From positions 1 through 64,000 of the IMG/VR virus record IMGVR_UViG_3300036833_000307: DNA of 64,000 nt; one strand, written 5' to 3'. A model generated the notes under the pieces. It did not search any database. It saw only the letters and a program-made list of their open reading frames with translations, and was not told the origin of the DNA. A program made the position numbers and the translations under genes. Below, in pieces: positions 25,279 to 35,055 of this stretch (its first letter is position 1; the number at the start of each line of letters is the position of its first letter). The DNA comes from a virus (lineage: Duplodnaviria > Caudoviricetes).

Positions 25279-25285
25279 GGTGCAT

Positions 25286-25876
25286 ATGTCAGCAATCGTG
25301 AAACAGCCGGTTGCGGCCCCGAGCGGTTGGCAGATCATGAAGATGTTGGAGATCGCCATCCAGCATCTCGAGCAACGCGATCGGGACATAACCGGCGACC
25401 AGGTTACCGAAGAACAGGACGAAGTTCTGGATACCGACATCGACGAATTGCTGGCGCTGCTGAAGAACAAGGGCTCCGATGTCGCCGGCATCATGACGGC
25501 ACTCCTGCTCGCCGGCGACGAGGGCAAACGCGAAGCCATGATGCTGGCCGAACGCGGCAAGCGCATAGCCTTGCGTCGCCAGCGCCGGCTGAACAAAGAG
25601 CGAAACTGCCGCAACGCCGCACTGCAGATCATGTTGACATTGCCCGAACTGTTTCCGGAGGGGAAATTCCGCGCCCCGCTGGTCGACGCTCAGGCACGGC
25701 CCGGTCGGCTGATCACCGCAGTCACTGACGAGACAAAAATCCCCGAGCGGTTCTTTGTCGTCACCCGCACGCTGGACAAGAACATGCTCAACGAAGCGGT
25801 CACCAAGGACGGCGAAGTAGTCGACGGCGCCGAGCTGCGCAACGGCGCGCCTTTCCTCGTCGTGAAAGTCACCTGA
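25286..25876 (+). CDS. Siphovirus Gp157-like protein
   Basis: Coiled coil plus DETKIPERFF...LDKNMLNEAVTKDGEVVDGAEL. Confidence 0.75.
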   Translation: MSAIVKQPVAAPSGWQIMKMLEIAIQHLEQRDRDITGDQVTEEQDEVLDTDIDELLALLKNKGSDVAGIMTALLLAGDEGKREAMMLAERGKRIALRRQRRLNKERNCRNAALQIMLTLPELFPEGKFRAPLVDAQARPGRLITAVTDETKIPERFFVVTRTLDKNMLNEAVTKDGEVVDGAELRNGAPFLVVKVT

Positions 25877-25907: not shown

Positions 25908-26762
25908 ATGCTGCTCACACGCCCATCGACCAAGACCCGCGGTAACGGTGCGCCTATGCCTCCCGCGCTGCCGAAGCGCCGCGGCCGGCCACCCAAGGTT
26001 GCCATGGCATTGGAAGTACCTGCCGCACCGGTCAAGCGCCGCGGCCGGCCGCCCAAGATAATCCGCGGATTGGAAAAAATGCGGCCGGTGAAAGCGAAAA
26101 TTCCGCCGCTCTCGGAGGGTGAGATCACTGCGCTATTGAGCGGCAAGCCACCACAGAAAATCGCTATCACCGCACCCAACCTTACCACCGCCACGATCAC
26201 CGTCGTCGGGGTAACCCCGTACGTCCAGAACGCCTTTACCGAAAAGCAACGGCTGATAATGGAAGAAACCCAACGCCAAGGTCAGCAGGCGCGTGGCAAA
26301 AAGGTGCGCAAGCCAAAGGATTTCGACGCCATCTACCGCAATGCCCAGCATCGCTCCAAGGAAGACTGGATTGGCATTCCGGCCGCCGCCTTTCGCAACG
26401 CCATGATCGACGCCACTCGTCTCGTCGGTGTCACCATGCAGCATGCCAAGATGAGCATTTTTATCGAAGCCGACGGCTACGACGCCCAAGACATGCGGGG
26501 ACTGGTCAAGATCCAGGGCGAGCCGCGACCATACAAGGCCCCGGTGCGCAATTCGAGCGGTGTCGCGGACATCAGATGGCGTCCGATGTGGGAAAAGTGG
26601 AAGGCCACCGTTCGTGTGACCTGGGATGCCGATCAGTACAGCGCAACCGACATCATGAACTTGATGTTGCGAGCAGGTCTCCAGGTCGGCATCGGTGAAG
26701 GCAGACCCAACAGTCCCAAATCCAACGGCCAGGACTGGGGCCGCTTTCGGATTGCCCCCTGA
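25908..26762 (+). CDS. RAMP/Cas7-like RNA-binding protein (VIPR-type effector candidate) with N-terminal AT-hook-like repeats
   Basis: TITVVGVTPY first strand, GIPAAAFRNAMIDA, IRWRP, C-terminal Gly-rich loop AGLQVGIGEGRP...DWGRF; two KRRGRPPK repeats; sits upstream of the GGC-NN array. Confidence 0.75.
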   Translation: MLLTRPSTKTRGNGAPMPPALPKRRGRPPKVAMALEVPAAPVKRRGRPPKIIRGLEKMRPVKAKIPPLSEGEITALLSGKPPQKIAITAPNLTTATITVVGVTPYVQNAFTEKQRLIMEETQRQGQQARGKKVRKPKDFDAIYRNAQHRSKEDWIGIPAAAFRNAMIDATRLVGVTMQHAKMSIFIEADGYDAQDMRGLVKIQGEPRPYKAPVRNSSGVADIRWRPMWEKWKATVRVTWDADQYSATDIMNLMLRAGLQVGIGEGRPNSPKSNGQDWGRFRIAP

Positions 26763-27283
26763 TGGCGGCGACACGCCGCCAGATCCGGGCCGAATTGCTA
26801 GCGCTCAAAAGCGACGACGGCCTCATCTACCCGGAGCGGGTACATGGATGGGCTCAGCGCCACCCGAATTCCGCGCTGTACAATTCGCTGAACTGGGACG
26901 ATGCCACAGCCGCGCACGAGCACCGGCTTTGGCAAATCCGACAGTTGATCCAGGTGCACATCACGATCGTCAGCGGCACCCGTGAATTCGTTTCGTTGAC
27001 CATCGACCGGGCAAGCGGCGGTGGTTATCGCGAGGTCGCCGATGTCGTCGCCTCCGGCAACCTACGGCAGATCATGTTGGACGATGCGCTCGAAGATTTG
27101 GAACGGGTGCGTCGCAAATACCAACTCCTCGACGAATTGGCGGGGGTCTGGAAGGCGGCAGAAGCCGCTCGTCCGACACCGCGCAGGAAACGGGCACAAC
27201 CCGCCCGCAAGAAGTCGTCACCCCGCCGACGGCGCCCGCTACCGGGCGGCGGTGATGATGGCCAGCCATCTGCGCCGGCATGA
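26762..27283 (+). CDS. Partner protein translationally coupled to the RAMP-like gene
   Basis: TGATG stop/start overlap; HPNSALYNSLNWDDATAAHEHRLWQIRQLI. Confidence 0.8.
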   Translation: MAATRRQIRAELLALKSDDGLIYPERVHGWAQRHPNSALYNSLNWDDATAAHEHRLWQIRQLIQVHITIVSGTREFVSLTIDRASGGGYREVADVVASGNLRQIMLDDALEDLERVRRKYQLLDELAGVWKAAEAARPTPRRKRAQPARKKSSPRRRRPLPGGGDDGQPSAPA

Positions 27284-27301
27284 AGCAGATGGATCGGCCA
27301 T

Positions 27302-28543
27302 GGCAGGCTCGGCAAGGCGCGTCTCGACGTGGCAGCGCATGGCATGTCTCGGCCGGACAGGGCAGGCACGGCAGGTCCTGGCGCGACGCGGTCGGGCAGG
27401 ACATGGCATGGCCGGGCAGGCCAGGCGGGGCGGGGCTCGACGCGGCTAGGCACCGCAACGCTCGGCAAGGCGGGTCCCGGCAGGCATGGCGTGGCGTGTC
27501 CAGGCCCGCCCGGGCATGTCCCGGCAGGCCGGGCACGGCGAGGCCTGTCACGACGAGCCACGGCTCGGCATGGCAGGCGCGGATGGCGCGGATGGCAAGC
27601 CAAGACGGGGCCGGGCAGGCGTGGCACGGCACGGTCAGTCCGGGCTACGCGCGTCCAGGCTTGGCAGGCGTGGCATGACTGGGCTTGGCGTGGCAGGGCG
27701 GAGCCCGCCCCGGCAGGCATGGCATGACTGGGCTTGGCGCGTCTCGTCTGGGCTTGGCGCGGCAGGCATGGCTCGGCCCGTCTTGGCCCGGCACGGCGGG
27801 GCAGCGCAGGCGTGGCAGGTCCCGACGAGGCATGGCCGGGCCTGCCGCGGCTCGGCGGGGCATGGCGGGGCAGGCGCGTCATGGCATGGCCCGTCCCGGC
27901 CTGCCGAGGCGTGGCCCGCCACGGCATGGCAGGCGTGGCAAGCCTCGGCGAGGCAAGGCGTGGCAAGGCCCGGCAGGGCAGGCGCGGCAAGGCGGGGCGG
28001 GGCCGGTCCTGGCTCGACATGCCCCGGCTCGGCAGGCACTGGCTCGGCAATGGCTCACCGGCCGAGCATGGCAGGCGTGGCTTGGCCTGGCGGGGCGTGG
28101 CCTGTCACGGCCCGGCCCGTCTCGGCAGGCTTGGCGCGACAGGCCCAGGCATGGCTCAGCTCGGCTCGGCGGGGCAGGCGTAGCAAGTCTCGGCTGGGCA
28201 AGACGTGGCAAGGCGAGACGAGCCTGGGCAGGCACGGCACGGCGAGCCTTGGCTTGGCTAGGCGTGGCCCGCCAGGGCATGGCAGGCATGGCGAGGCTAG
28301 CCTCGGCAAGGCGCGGCCCGGCGCGGCGTGGCAGGCCAGACGCGGCAAGGCGGGGCTCGGAGCGGCGCGGCGTGGCCAAGCGCGGCAGGCGCGGCAGGCT
28401 CGGCAACGGTTCACCGGCCGAGCCCACCCCGCGGCAGGCATGGCACGGCCTGGCCCGGCCCGACGAGGCACGGCGTGGCGAGACTAGGCAGGCGCGGCCA
28501 GGCATGGCTTGGCAAGGCTGGGCGCGGCAGGCAAGGAGTGGCA
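27302..28543 (+). repeat. Non-coding array of GGC-NN pentamers in about 23-25 units delimited by GGCA (putative guide-RNA array)
   Basis: Strict 5-nt period (GGC, sometimes GTC/GAC/GCC/AGC/CGC, plus 2 variable nt), mostly 7-12 pentamers per unit, phase reset by GGCA; all overlapping ORFs are low-complexity artefacts. Confidence 0.9.
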
Positions 28544-28551
28544 GACCCGCA

Positions 28552-29649
28552 ATGGAAACCATCCGCCTCGAGGACGACGAGATGCCACCCTCTCGGTACA
28601 CTCGATCACCCCCGCGGGTCTGCTCTCGCCATGGCACAACGTTCTTTTCGTTGTTCAATTGTCCAGCTTGCCGTCCGGAACACCTAGTCGCCCTGTCACC
28701 ATACGGATCCATGAATGCCAGTCAGCCTCGCCCAGCAGATCCGCTGCGTTGAACGCGAGCTCCGGCTGCGCCGCCACGTCTACCCACGCTGGATCGAGGA
28801 AAAGCGCCTCAGCCAAGCGGACGCGGACGCGGAAATTCTGGCAATGGAGGCCGTCTTGAGCACACTTGGCCGGCTATGGACCGAGCAGCATCCGGTCCAG
28901 GCCTCTCTGCCGTTGGAGAAGACCGACGAGGAGGGATGATATGCAGAACCGCCACCCCGACGATCCAGAAAAGCAAGACGATCCAGAAAAGCTGCCCAGC
29001 GATGGCTGGGAAGATGTCGCCTCCCGCAACATCGGCGATTACCTGGAGCGCATAGCGGTCCCTGGTGGGTGGCTGTATCGCCAGTATTTCGCCAAGGAAA
29101 CCACCCCGACATGCGTGGCCCTGGTATTCGTGCCGCAGCCGCCGTGATCGCGATCGACGGCCAAAACGTGAACCAAACACCAACCCCTTGCGGCGAATCG
29201 GAGCAAACCTGCACAGCGCGCTAGCCACCATTTACTTTGCGAGCTCGCCAGCCATGCCAGTGTTCCGCTCTCCGAGCGGTCGGATCAAACGCTTCATCTG
29301 CTCACGCGATATGTTCCTGCGCTGGGCCTGCTTGCCTTATGGCACGTGGTTAACCGGCGAAGGACGACAGATCCTGTTCAACCGGTTCTACGAGCCGATC
29401 TGGCAACGGCTGGCGGACGGCAGCACCGAACCGGCGGACCCGACGGAATGGGTCCAGAGCATTACCGACCGGCGCTGGTTTTACCATGACGGACACAACG
29501 AGCGTGAAAAACGCGTGATGGCACGCGCTGCGCTGCGGGCCTGGAGCTTGCCCGAGCCGAGCTGTGCGGACATCGCGGCGCTACAGCAACCGATCCGGCG
29601 AAGGTTGCATGAGCTAAGCCGCCGGCGGCTTCTCAGCGCGGTATCGTAG
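28552..29649 (+). CDS. Four small hypothetical genes (28552-28752, 28715-28939, 28941-29147, ~29144-29649)
   Basis: 28715-28939 (QQIRCVERELRLRRHVYPRWI) looks like a common phage family; the others have RBS or coupling. Confidence 0.55.
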
Positions 29650-34826: not shown

Positions 34827-35055
34827 TTGCGGCCGGTGAACCGTCGCCGCAAAGCCAGCCAAGCCTGCCGCGCCCAACCCGGCCCTGCCTGGCCGCGCCA
34901 TGTCCTGCCTGGCCTGCCGCCCCTGGCCCGGCCTAGCCCTGCCTGGCTGCGTCTCGCCATGCCGTGCCAAGTCCAGCCCTGCCTCGCCCGACCAAGCCAC
35001 GCCTGCCATGACCCGCCGTGCCTAGCCTGCCAGGGCCTGCCGCGCCTTGTCCCAG
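34827..35055 (-). ncRNA. Stand-alone GGC-NN mini-array (solo guide locus 2, about 3 units)
   Basis: Pentamer period on the minus strand; TTGACG(35081-86)-N18-TACGAT(35057-62) promoter; ends in a hairpin with the GACGGTTCACCG loop. Confidence 0.85.

What the first reader, a model, noticed from the sequence alone, without database searches (positions are those of the whole stretch)
27306..27360. First guide appears to target a homolog of the system's own partner gene
NN = TC AA GC TC GT AG AT AT TC CG AG decodes to CT CG GA AT AT CT AC GA GC TT GA (LREIMLTDALE). The adjacent partner gene at 27062-27094 reads cta cgg cag atc atg ttg gac gat gcg ctc gaa (LRQIMLDDALE): 17/22 bases, 7/11 dinucleotides and 9/11 residues compatible, with two mismatches being synonymous CTN/TTN leucine swaps. 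This suggests targeting of the same system in competing phages with self-escape, or weak autoregulation. The next unit (27365-27414, ..MLRAARLV) loosely resembles MIDATRLV in the RAMP gene.
Basis: partly seen in the sequence, partly recalled or inferred. Interest (0 to 1): 0.88.

Follow-up and report, generated by a model that had tools for sequence, protein, structure and literature searches.

The report
VIPR guide aimed at rivals' vap
The first guide RNA of this soil phage's VIPR system (a CRISPR-like, phage-borne DNA silencer described in 2026) spells a conserved stretch of the system's own accessory gene as a rival phage writes it (21 of 22 read bases), not as the phage itself does (17 of 22). 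It is therefore most likely a weapon against competitors' VIPR systems, which makes it a real but new example of an already reported behaviour.

Summary
Unit 1 of the pentamer array (27306-27360) decodes by the two-read, one-skipped rule to a site in the adjacent gene. That site (27062-27093) matches at 17/22 bases, in frame, with every skipped base on a wobble position. It is the single best match in the whole 102.5-kb genome.

The locus is a VIPR system, described in 2026 bioRxiv preprints. It has a Vipr RAMP protein (25908-26762), an accessory vap gene (26762-27283) and a "staggered" GGCNN vrRNA array (27306-28543).

A vap homologue on a metagenomic phage contig (L001) matches the guide at 21/22 at the same codons, and six other alleles score 18-19. 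No 22/22 allele was found. The resident allele scores 77% and the closest relative's allele 73%, both below the 80% cut-off used by the VIPR authors.

Conversely, the first guide of the closest relative (L005) matches this phage's vipr at 20/22.

The side remark about unit 2 is at chance level (11/20). An evolved "self-escape" is not demonstrated, because the resident allele lies within ordinary family divergence.

Guides against other VIPR systems are already published. This scan has also noted similar near-self guides on other genomes. Verdict: a new member of a known kind.

The parts
25908..26762 (+). vipr: RAMP (Cas7/Csm3-like) effector gene, 284 aa, with an N-terminal extension carrying two KRRGRPPK (AT-hook-like) motifs
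   Evidence: phrog_4652. 1,227 homologues. AlphaFold model with pLDDT 80.6. Foldseek top hits are Csm3/Cas7 subunits of type III and type VII complexes, probability 1.0, E 3e-5. The family profile hits PDB 36pp 'SUSP1 Vipr protein', E 4.8e-4.
26762..27283 (+). vap: VIPR accessory gene (173 aa). Its start overlaps the vipr stop (ATGA-type overlap).
   Evidence: phrog_15946. 78 close homologues and 13,401 representative clusters by profile. It lies next to vipr in 84 of 87 loci. The model has pLDDT 87 and is mostly helical, with no significant PDB match.
27062..27093 (+). Near-self site of guide 1 inside vap (codons 101-111, LRQIMLDDALE), 17/22 read bases
   Evidence: The site is the most conserved motif of the vap family (LR.IML.DAL.EL) and lies in predicted helix 99-120.
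27306..27364 (+). vrRNA unit 1 (guide 1): eleven GNC+NN pentamers (27306-27360) plus the closing GGCA
   Evidence: Viterbi parse and decoding. Matches the L001 vap allele at 21/22.
27306..28543 (+). Staggered vrRNA array: 21 units of 7-18 pentamers, most of them closed by a 4-nt GGCA so that the register slips by one base per unit
   Evidence: The same architecture is seen in L001, L005, L009 and L010. 580 of 590 called guides in 87 loci lie on the vipr strand.
26430..26461 (-). Site in this phage's vipr matched 20/22 by the first guide of the closest relative (L005:6527-6581)
   Evidence: The skipped bases fall on wobble positions. L005's own allele scores 18/22.
26562..26590 (-). Site in this phage's vipr (motif VADIRWRPMW) matched 19/20 by an intergenic guide of L010 (L010:1169-1218)
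   Evidence: The same guide matches 20/20 in the vipr genes of ten other loci.
28397..28424 (+). Hairpin with a conserved loop that interrupts or ends the pentamer register. A similar element ends the L005 array and the minus-strand array at 34850-35042.
   Evidence: Read directly from the sequence. Not analysed further.

Best explanation
Guide 1 is an anti-VIPR vrRNA.

Shown here: the locus is a VIPR system with vipr, vap and a staggered GGCNN array. The variable dinucleotides of unit 1 spell, with every third (wobble) base skipped, the most conserved motif of the vap family. They spell it as a rival phage lineage (L001 type) writes it, not as the resident gene does.

Inferred from the published mechanism: Vipr protomers polymerise on the transcript and hide each GGC while presenting each NN. 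The filament binds double-stranded DNA at the gapped target and blocks transcription. In a co-infected or lysogenic cell it would therefore sit on the rival's vap. Because the rival's array follows vap directly, it would probably also block transcription of that array.

The resident allele has five mismatches (77%). The allele of the closest relative scores 73%. Both fall below the 80% match the VIPR authors use for predicted targets, so they are probably spared or only weakly bound.
For: System identity:
- RAMP fold of the upstream protein, and a profile hit to SUSP1 Vipr.
- vipr-vap synteny in 84 of 87 loci.
- Arrays co-oriented with vipr.
- A unit period of 5n+4, which fits the published 'staggered arrays' with 1-nt overlaps.

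Targeting:
- 21/22 to the L001/L002 vap allele at the homologous codons, in frame. L001 carries its own vipr (61% identical to this phage's), vap and array.
- The match includes the first bases of two Leu codons that differ from the resident gene, so it is a nucleotide-level fit and not only a protein-level one.
- The guide is closer to the L001 allele (21) than any two natural alleles are to each other (at most 20).
- Conditional null P = 2.5e-5.

Generality:
- Of 67 hand-called guides from the first eight loci fetched, only two hit any vipr-vap operon at 80% or more. Both are first-position guides: this one, and L005's against this phage's vipr.
- In an all-against-all test of 446 guides, 7 reach 85% or more against a mean of 1.2 in five shuffles. 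These include 20/20 and 19/20 hits on vipr or vap of other loci.

Literature:
- The 1-nt skip rule, wobble alignment, dsDNA binding and silencing (10.64898/2026.04.26.720920 and .720927).
- vipr-targeting vrRNAs, and vrRNA-targeting vrRNAs whose self-match scores are lower than their non-self scores (10.64898/2026.10.15.759431).
Against: - No 22/22 target was found in IMG/VR, the JGI metagenome collection or the species-representative genomes.
- The best target comes from another metagenome. Co-occurrence with this phage in one host is unknown.
- There is no expression, processing or binding data for this array. No RNA data were available.
- The mismatch tolerance of this VIPR clade is unknown; the 80% cut-off comes from type II systems.
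- Two other anti-vipr guides in the clade match their own gene at 82% (L005) and 90% (L010). So either 80% is not a sharp self/non-self boundary here, or such guides also act on self.
- The resident allele's score (17) is ordinary for the family: 7 of 30 distinct alleles score higher, 6 equal and 16 lower. Specific self-avoidance is therefore not demonstrated.
Confidence: 0.72

Rival explanations
1. Autoregulation. Guide 1 is a deliberately imperfect match to the phage's own vap. It gives weak negative feedback on vap and on read-through into the array, which starts about 210 bp downstream of the site.
For: - The near-self site is the best match in the whole genome and lies in the same transcription unit, just upstream of the array.
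- No promoter-like or terminator-like site separates vap from the array.
- Operon-proximal guides in L005 and L010 match their own vipr at 82% and 90%.
Against: - In all three cases a foreign allele matches better than self: 21 against 17, 20 against 18, and 20/20 against 18/20. A dedicated autoregulator would be expected to track its own gene.
- The VIPR authors found no self hits at 80% or more in the clades they examined.
Confidence: 0.13
2. Non-functional relic or by-product. The unit once matched an ancestral or foreign vap allele and is now drifting. Alternatively, any guide against a conserved family motif will resemble many alleles without current use.
For: - No perfect target is known.
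- Family alleles share 13-20 of the 22 read positions anyway.
- Targets of most other guides in this array remain unidentified.
Against: - The unit keeps a clean GNC scaffold and a normal length of 11 pentamers.
- 21/22 to an extant allele is far beyond family background (P = 2.5e-5).
- Seven distinct extant alleles pass the 80% cut-off.
Confidence: 0.1
3. Pure coincidence between an unrelated guide and the neighbouring gene.
For: 17/22 somewhere in the 102-kb genome occurs for 18% of shuffled guides.
Against: - Location inside the operon has P = 0.0005-0.002 per guide.
- The match is in frame and wobble-aligned.
- 21/22 at the homologous codons of a homologue.
Confidence: 0.02

Closest known systems
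VIPR systems (Viral Interference Programmable Repeat): Vipr + vap + vrRNA; type II of Escherichia phage SUSP1 and the Pseudomonas fulva prophage (bioRxiv 10.64898/2026.04.26.720920; structures in 10.64898/2026.04.26.720927)
   Same: - A RAMP effector gene followed by a small accessory gene and co-oriented GGY+NN pentamer guides.
- Targets read two bases and skip one.
- Skipped bases fall on codon wobble positions.
- The system is phage-borne.
   Different: - Here the guides have no individual structured 3' tails. They form one long 'staggered' array of units closed by GGCA, an architecture the paper mentions only in its fig. S18 legend.
- Vipr is only distantly related to SUSP1 Vipr (profile E 4.8e-4) and carries an AT-hook-like N-terminal extension.
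- Which of the published vap1-6 classes this vap belongs to could not be determined.
vrRNAs that target other VIPR systems: the P. fulva clade (discovery paper, fig. S15), and vipr- or vrRNA-targeting solo vrRNAs of VIPR-null SUSP1-like phages (bioRxiv 10.64898/2026.10.15.759431)
   Same: - A guide directed at a component of rival VIPR systems.
- Wobble-aligned.
- The self match is lower than the non-self match.
   Different: - The target here is vap, not vipr or a vrRNA.
- The carrier is a VIPR-positive soil phage of about 100 kb from a different VIPR clade.
- The site is the most conserved vap motif.
- The evidence here is computational only.
Phage-encoded CRISPR-Cas used against rival mobile elements (for example Vibrio phage ICP1 against PLE; from my own knowledge, not checked here)
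   Same: A virus carries an RNA-guided system whose guides are aimed at a competing mobile element in the same host.
   Different: CRISPR uses contiguous spacers, nucleases and an adaptation machinery. VIPR uses a gapped code and, in the characterised types, silences without cutting.

Membership tests
VIPR system | Vipr protein: a minimal RAMP (RRM core, G-loop, thumb) homologous to characterised Vipr | tested here: met
   Model pLDDT 80.6. Foldseek top hits are Csm3/Cas7 subunits, probability 1.0. The family profile hits PDB 36pp 'SUSP1 Vipr protein', E 4.8e-4. The G-loop and thumb were not inspected residue by residue.
VIPR system | Adjacent vipr-accessory (vap) gene | tested here: met
   A 173-aa gene overlaps the vipr stop. 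Homologues lie next to vipr in 84 of 87 loci.
VIPR system | vrRNA genes made of tandem GGY+NN pentamers, on the vipr strand | tested here: met
   1.24-kb array with GGC spacing of 5 nt, parsed into 21 units of 7 or more pentamers. 580 of 590 guides across 87 loci are on the vipr strand.
VIPR system | Targets follow the 1-nt skip rule, with the skipped base on the wobble position, in other mobile elements | tested here: met
   Guide 1 matches L001 vap at 21/22, in frame. The L005 guide matches this phage's vipr at 20/22. The L010 guide matches ten vipr genes at 20/20. Other skip lengths were not compared.
VIPR system | vrRNAs are expressed, processed and bound by Vipr; the complex binds dsDNA and silences transcription | not testable with these tools
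   No RNA run was listed for this DNA. Taken from the literature for type II systems only.
Staggered vrRNA array (fig. S18 of the discovery paper) | Successive vrRNAs derive from positions overlapping by 1 nt, so that the end of one marks the start of the next | tested here: met
   Most units have length 5n+4 (a closing GGCA followed directly by GGC), so the register shifts by -1 per unit. This was compared with the figure legend only; the figure itself is not held.
Anti-VIPR guide (a vrRNA aimed at rival VIPR systems) | At least 80% match of read bases to a foreign vipr/vap/vrRNA, with a lower match to self | tested here: met
   95% to L001; 86% to L008 and L018; 82% to L003, L010, L017 and L053; 77% to self; 73% to the closest relative L005.
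Anti-VIPR guide (a vrRNA aimed at rival VIPR systems) | Carrier and target meet in the same host, and the guide represses the target | not testable with these tools
   This phage comes from a 2020 soil metagenome. L001 comes from JGI samples 3300051090/3300051091. No host or co-occurrence data are available.

The most novel reading that the evidence does not exclude
In this soil-phage VIPR clade, the guide placed nearest the vipr-vap genes may be a dedicated anti-VIPR guide, with relatives targeting each other's vipr or vap reciprocally. That would be a VIPR-against-VIPR arms race in which vap is a target in its own right. The resident copy would be protected partly by rare allele states, including switches between the two codon families of Leu, Ser and Arg. 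Those switches are the only synonymous changes that a wobble-skipping code can see. The three VIPR preprints do not discuss that escape route (term searches for 'synonymous', 'six-fold' and 'leucine').
Probability: 0.3. Interest if true: 0.55.

Novelty: new member of a known kind. Interest (0 to 1): 0.36.

Why it matters
It gives an independent, sequence-only confirmation that the VIPR gapped code operates in a distant, uncultured soil-phage clade with staggered arrays. It also shows that rival VIPR systems are themselves targets there. In this case the accessory gene vap is hit at its most conserved motif. That fits the published finding that vap is needed for, or enhances, VIPR function, and it marks the motif as functionally important.

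The reciprocal hits between this phage, L005 and L010 sketch a network of phage-against-phage silencing that could be mapped systematically.

Mycobacterium smegmatis phages of the genus Cheoctovirus carry the same vipr-vap pair with a pentamer array. They offer a culturable model for this clade.

Tried and rejected
Searches for a perfect or near-perfect target:
- Exact-pattern scan for a 22/22 target in IMG/VR: no hits.
- The same pattern with codon 7 left free (20 fixed bases): no hits in IMG/VR or the JGI metagenome collection.
- In species-representative genomes, that pattern gave two hits. Neither is a vap gene, and both read LR[ED]IILREAF in unrelated ORFs. By my arithmetic about one such hit is expected by chance.

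Searches that failed for technical reasons:
- The search for related loci with the single vap protein found nothing.
- With the 78-sequence vap alignment it failed because no block was conserved enough.
- DNA for two homologues (P0004, P0008) was unavailable.

Annotation attempts that gave nothing:
- Vap fold: no PDB match with E below 1, only insignificant winged-helix-like rows.
- Pfam, PADLOC and Rfam: no hits for the two proteins or the array.
- Promoter and terminator scan between vap and the array: nothing.
- Sequencing runs: no RNA holder listed. One soil run holds the DNA and may be its source.

Other guides:
- Guide 3 (MTase-like motif): two exact-pattern scans of IMG/VR gave no hits.
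- Other guides of this array against about 590 kb of related phage loci: only chance-level 15/18 hits.
- L001's guides against this genome: none at 80% or more.

Readings considered and rejected:
- A coding reading of the array. The long ORFs across it are a by-product of composition, and the register slips every unit.
- A CRISPR array. There is no repeat-spacer structure.

Full report
**What is at the coordinates**

The region 27290-28550 is a run of GGC plus two variable bases with a 5-nt period. GGC-to-GGC spacing is 5 in 101 cases and 10 in 34.

A Viterbi parse splits the run into 21 units of 7-18 pentamers. Most units are closed by a 4-nt GGCA, so the register slips by one base per unit.

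Upstream lie two overlapping genes on the same strand: 25908-26762 (284 aa, phrog_4652) and 26762-27283 (173 aa, phrog_15946). Neither has a Pfam, PADLOC or Rfam match.

**What the system is**

A literature search found three 2026 bioRxiv preprints on VIPR systems.

- The discovery paper (10.64898/2026.04.26.720920) describes mostly phage- and prophage-borne loci with a minimal RAMP protein (Vipr), an accessory gene (vap) and vrRNAs made of GGY/NN pentamers.
- In that paper, NN bases pair with dsDNA while one target base per unit is skipped. The skipped base usually falls on the codon wobble position, and binding silences transcription.
- The structural paper (.720927) shows Vipr filaments that sequester GGY and present NN.
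- The third paper (10.64898/2026.10.15.759431) reports vipr-targeting solo vrRNAs, and vrRNA-targeting vrRNAs whose self-match scores are lower than their non-self scores. It uses an identity score of 0.8 or more for predicted targets.

**Membership of this locus**

- The upstream protein has 1,227 homologues.
- Its AlphaFold model (pLDDT 80.6) hits Csm3/Cas7 subunits of type III and type VII complexes with Foldseek probability 1.0.
- The family profile hits PDB 36pp, 'SUSP1 Vipr protein', at E 4.8e-4.
- The downstream gene belongs to a very large family: 13,401 representative clusters at E of 1e-3 or lower.
- That gene lies next to vipr in 84 of 87 loci examined.
- In those loci, 580 of 590 called guides are on the vipr strand.

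I therefore file the locus as a VIPR system with a staggered array. Expression and binding could not be tested.

**The observation itself**

Placed with a one-base skip, guide 1 matches vap at 27062-27093(+) at 17/22 read bases, in frame, with the skips on wobble positions. This is the single best site on both strands of the 102,563-bp genome.

The score alone is not remarkable, because 18% of order-shuffled guides reach 17 somewhere in the genome. The location is remarkable. Only 0.05-0.19% of 20,000 shuffled or random guides reach 17 anywhere in the 1,376-bp operon, and at most 0.065% do so in frame on the sense strand of vap. After correction for 21 guides, this is about 0.01-0.04.

Unit 2 against MIDATRLV scores 11/20 by my count, and its best score in the operon is 12/20.

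**The decisive test: homologues**

Seventy-eight vap homologues align with the targeted codons as the best-conserved motif of the family, LR.IML.DAL.EL. I obtained DNA for seven of them.

Guide-1 scores at the homologous codons:

| Locus | Score (of 22) |
|---|---|
| L001/L002 | 21 |
| L008 | 19 |
| L003 | 18 |
| L010 | 18 |
| Self | 17 |
| L004 | 17 |
| L005 (closest relative) | 16 |
| L009 | 15 |

- The L001 allele (LREIMLNDALE) differs from the guide at one base. It agrees at the first bases of the two Leu codons where the resident gene disagrees.
- Natural alleles share at most 20 of the 22 positions with each other, so the guide is closer to the L001 allele than any two alleles are to one another.
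- A random sequence five informative mismatches from the resident allele reaches 21 on any of the seven homologues with P = 2.5e-5.
- L001 is a different phage lineage with its own vipr (61% identical), vap and staggered array.
- Among 80 further IMG/VR loci, the best scores are 19 (L018) and 18 (L017, L053).
- No 22/22 allele turned up in three collections. The two 20/22 hits in bacterial genomes are unrelated ORFs.

**Reciprocity and generality**

- The first guide of the closest relative (L005, a 104.5-kb contig) matches this phage's vipr at 26430-26461(-) at 20/22, wobble-aligned. It matches its own vipr at 18/22. The self mismatches include a Leu TTG/CTN and a Ser TCG/AGN family switch.
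- A guide lying between vipr and vap in L010 spells the invariant VADIRWRPMW motif. It matches ten vipr genes at 20/20, this phage's vipr (26562-26590) at 19/20, and its own at 18/20.
- In an all-against-all scan of 446 guides against 87 operons, 7 guides reach 85% or more, against 0-4 (mean 1.2) in five shuffles.

VIPR-against-VIPR guides therefore recur in this clade, and this phage is both an attacker and a predicted target.

**How it most likely works**

Shown: the sequence relationships above.

Inferred from the type II literature: unit 1 is transcribed with the array and coated by Vipr. It then binds the gapped site in a rival's vap, blocking transcription of vap and probably of the array that follows it directly.

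The resident allele (77%) and that of the closest relative (73%) fall below the authors' 80% cut-off.

**Limits of the inference**

- The mismatch tolerance of this clade is unknown.
- L005 and L010 show self matches of 82% and 90%, so some action on self (autoregulation) cannot be excluded.
- The resident allele is not unusually diverged from the guide. Among 30 distinct alleles, 7 score higher, 6 equal and 16 lower.
- Its two departures from majority states are Gln at codon 3 and TTG at Leu-6. They lower it from 19 to 17, but they are only suggestive; I estimate P of about 0.08 from the frequencies.

**Novelty**

The system, the code and the existence of anti-VIPR guides are all published, so this is a new member of a known kind.

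What is additional here:
- The target is vap, at its most conserved motif.
- The carrier is a VIPR-positive soil phage with a staggered array.
- Relatives target each other reciprocally.
- Six-fold-degenerate codon families may offer a synonymous escape route. The preprints do not mention this.

Earlier notes of this scan report VIPR arrays in at least 14 other genomes, and near-self guides aimed at rivals in at least 7. One of those describes an anti-vipr guide with a Ser TCG/AG mismatch that resembles what I found independently in L005.

Noticed in passing
window 27419-27478; L005:6797-6851: Guide 3 decodes to G-P-[FL]-[DE]-[FL]-V-Y-A-[DE]-P-P-W, which resembles motif IV (DPPW) of N6-adenine/MT-A70-type DNA methyltransferases. 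The closest relative L005 keeps a near-identical guide that differs in a Leu codon family. No exact target was found in IMG/VR. No such gene site matches at 80% or more in this genome.
   Followed up: partly
window 27873-27927; L005:6856-6910: Guide 11 decodes to [IM]-V-G-T-S-[RS]-G-G-[IM]-[IM]-A, and the L005 counterpart to A-G-T-S-T-G-G-[IM]-[IM]-A-[IM]. From memory this resembles the GxSxG nucleophile motif of patatin-like phospholipases. Two related phages keeping guides for the same motifs suggests conserved targets. Targets were not searched.
   Followed up: no
window 26430-26461 and 26562-26590 (minus-strand reading): This phage's own vipr gene is a predicted target of guides carried by other phages: the first guide of L005 (20/22) and the intergenic guide of L010 (19/20).
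   Followed up: yes
window 34850-35042 (minus strand): A second, short pentamer array lies on the minus strand, with units of about 4, 17 and 9 pentamers. It ends in a hairpin whose loop matches the hairpins at 28050-28067 and 28397-28424 and the end of the L005 array. None of its guides hit the loci tested above chance.
   Followed up: partly
window 25968-26060: The Vipr N-terminus carries two KRRGRPPK motifs (AT-hook-like RGRP cores). Most homologues (about 235 aa) lack them, but the L005 protein shares them. The region is predicted disordered.
   Followed up: no
L091 (Mycobacterium phage Mattes, NC_051681.1 36735-38181): Cultured M. smegmatis phages (Cheoctovirus: Mattes, BobaPhett, SwagPigglett and others) have a GGCNN tract just upstream of gp52 and gp53. 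These proteins are Vipr and Vap homologues (hhalign probability 99.7% and 99.2%) annotated as hypothetical proteins. They would be a culturable model for this VIPR clade.
   Followed up: partly
L004:1036-1435: One related locus uses AGC+NN pentamers (each unit starts with GGC and ends with AGCA) instead of GGC+NN, a variant scaffold consensus.
   Followed up: no
L001:5574-6188(-), L005:6604-7362(+); window 27486-28487 and 27685-28752: Gene callers place long 'hypothetical protein' ORFs across vrRNA arrays. These are artefacts of the G+C-rich, stop-poor pentamer composition.
   Followed up: no
window 25280-25876: The gene upstream of the VIPR operon is a Gp157 / Mu Gam-like protein (Pfam PF05565, phrog_253). 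The same neighbour precedes the locus in L005.
   Followed up: no
L020:4896-4945 and L024:4785-4834: Two further anti-VIPR guides in the clade. The L020 guide matches the vap of L026 at 19/20 and the vap of L001, L010 and L023 at 17/20. The L024 guide matches the vipr of L025 at 19/20.
   Followed up: partly
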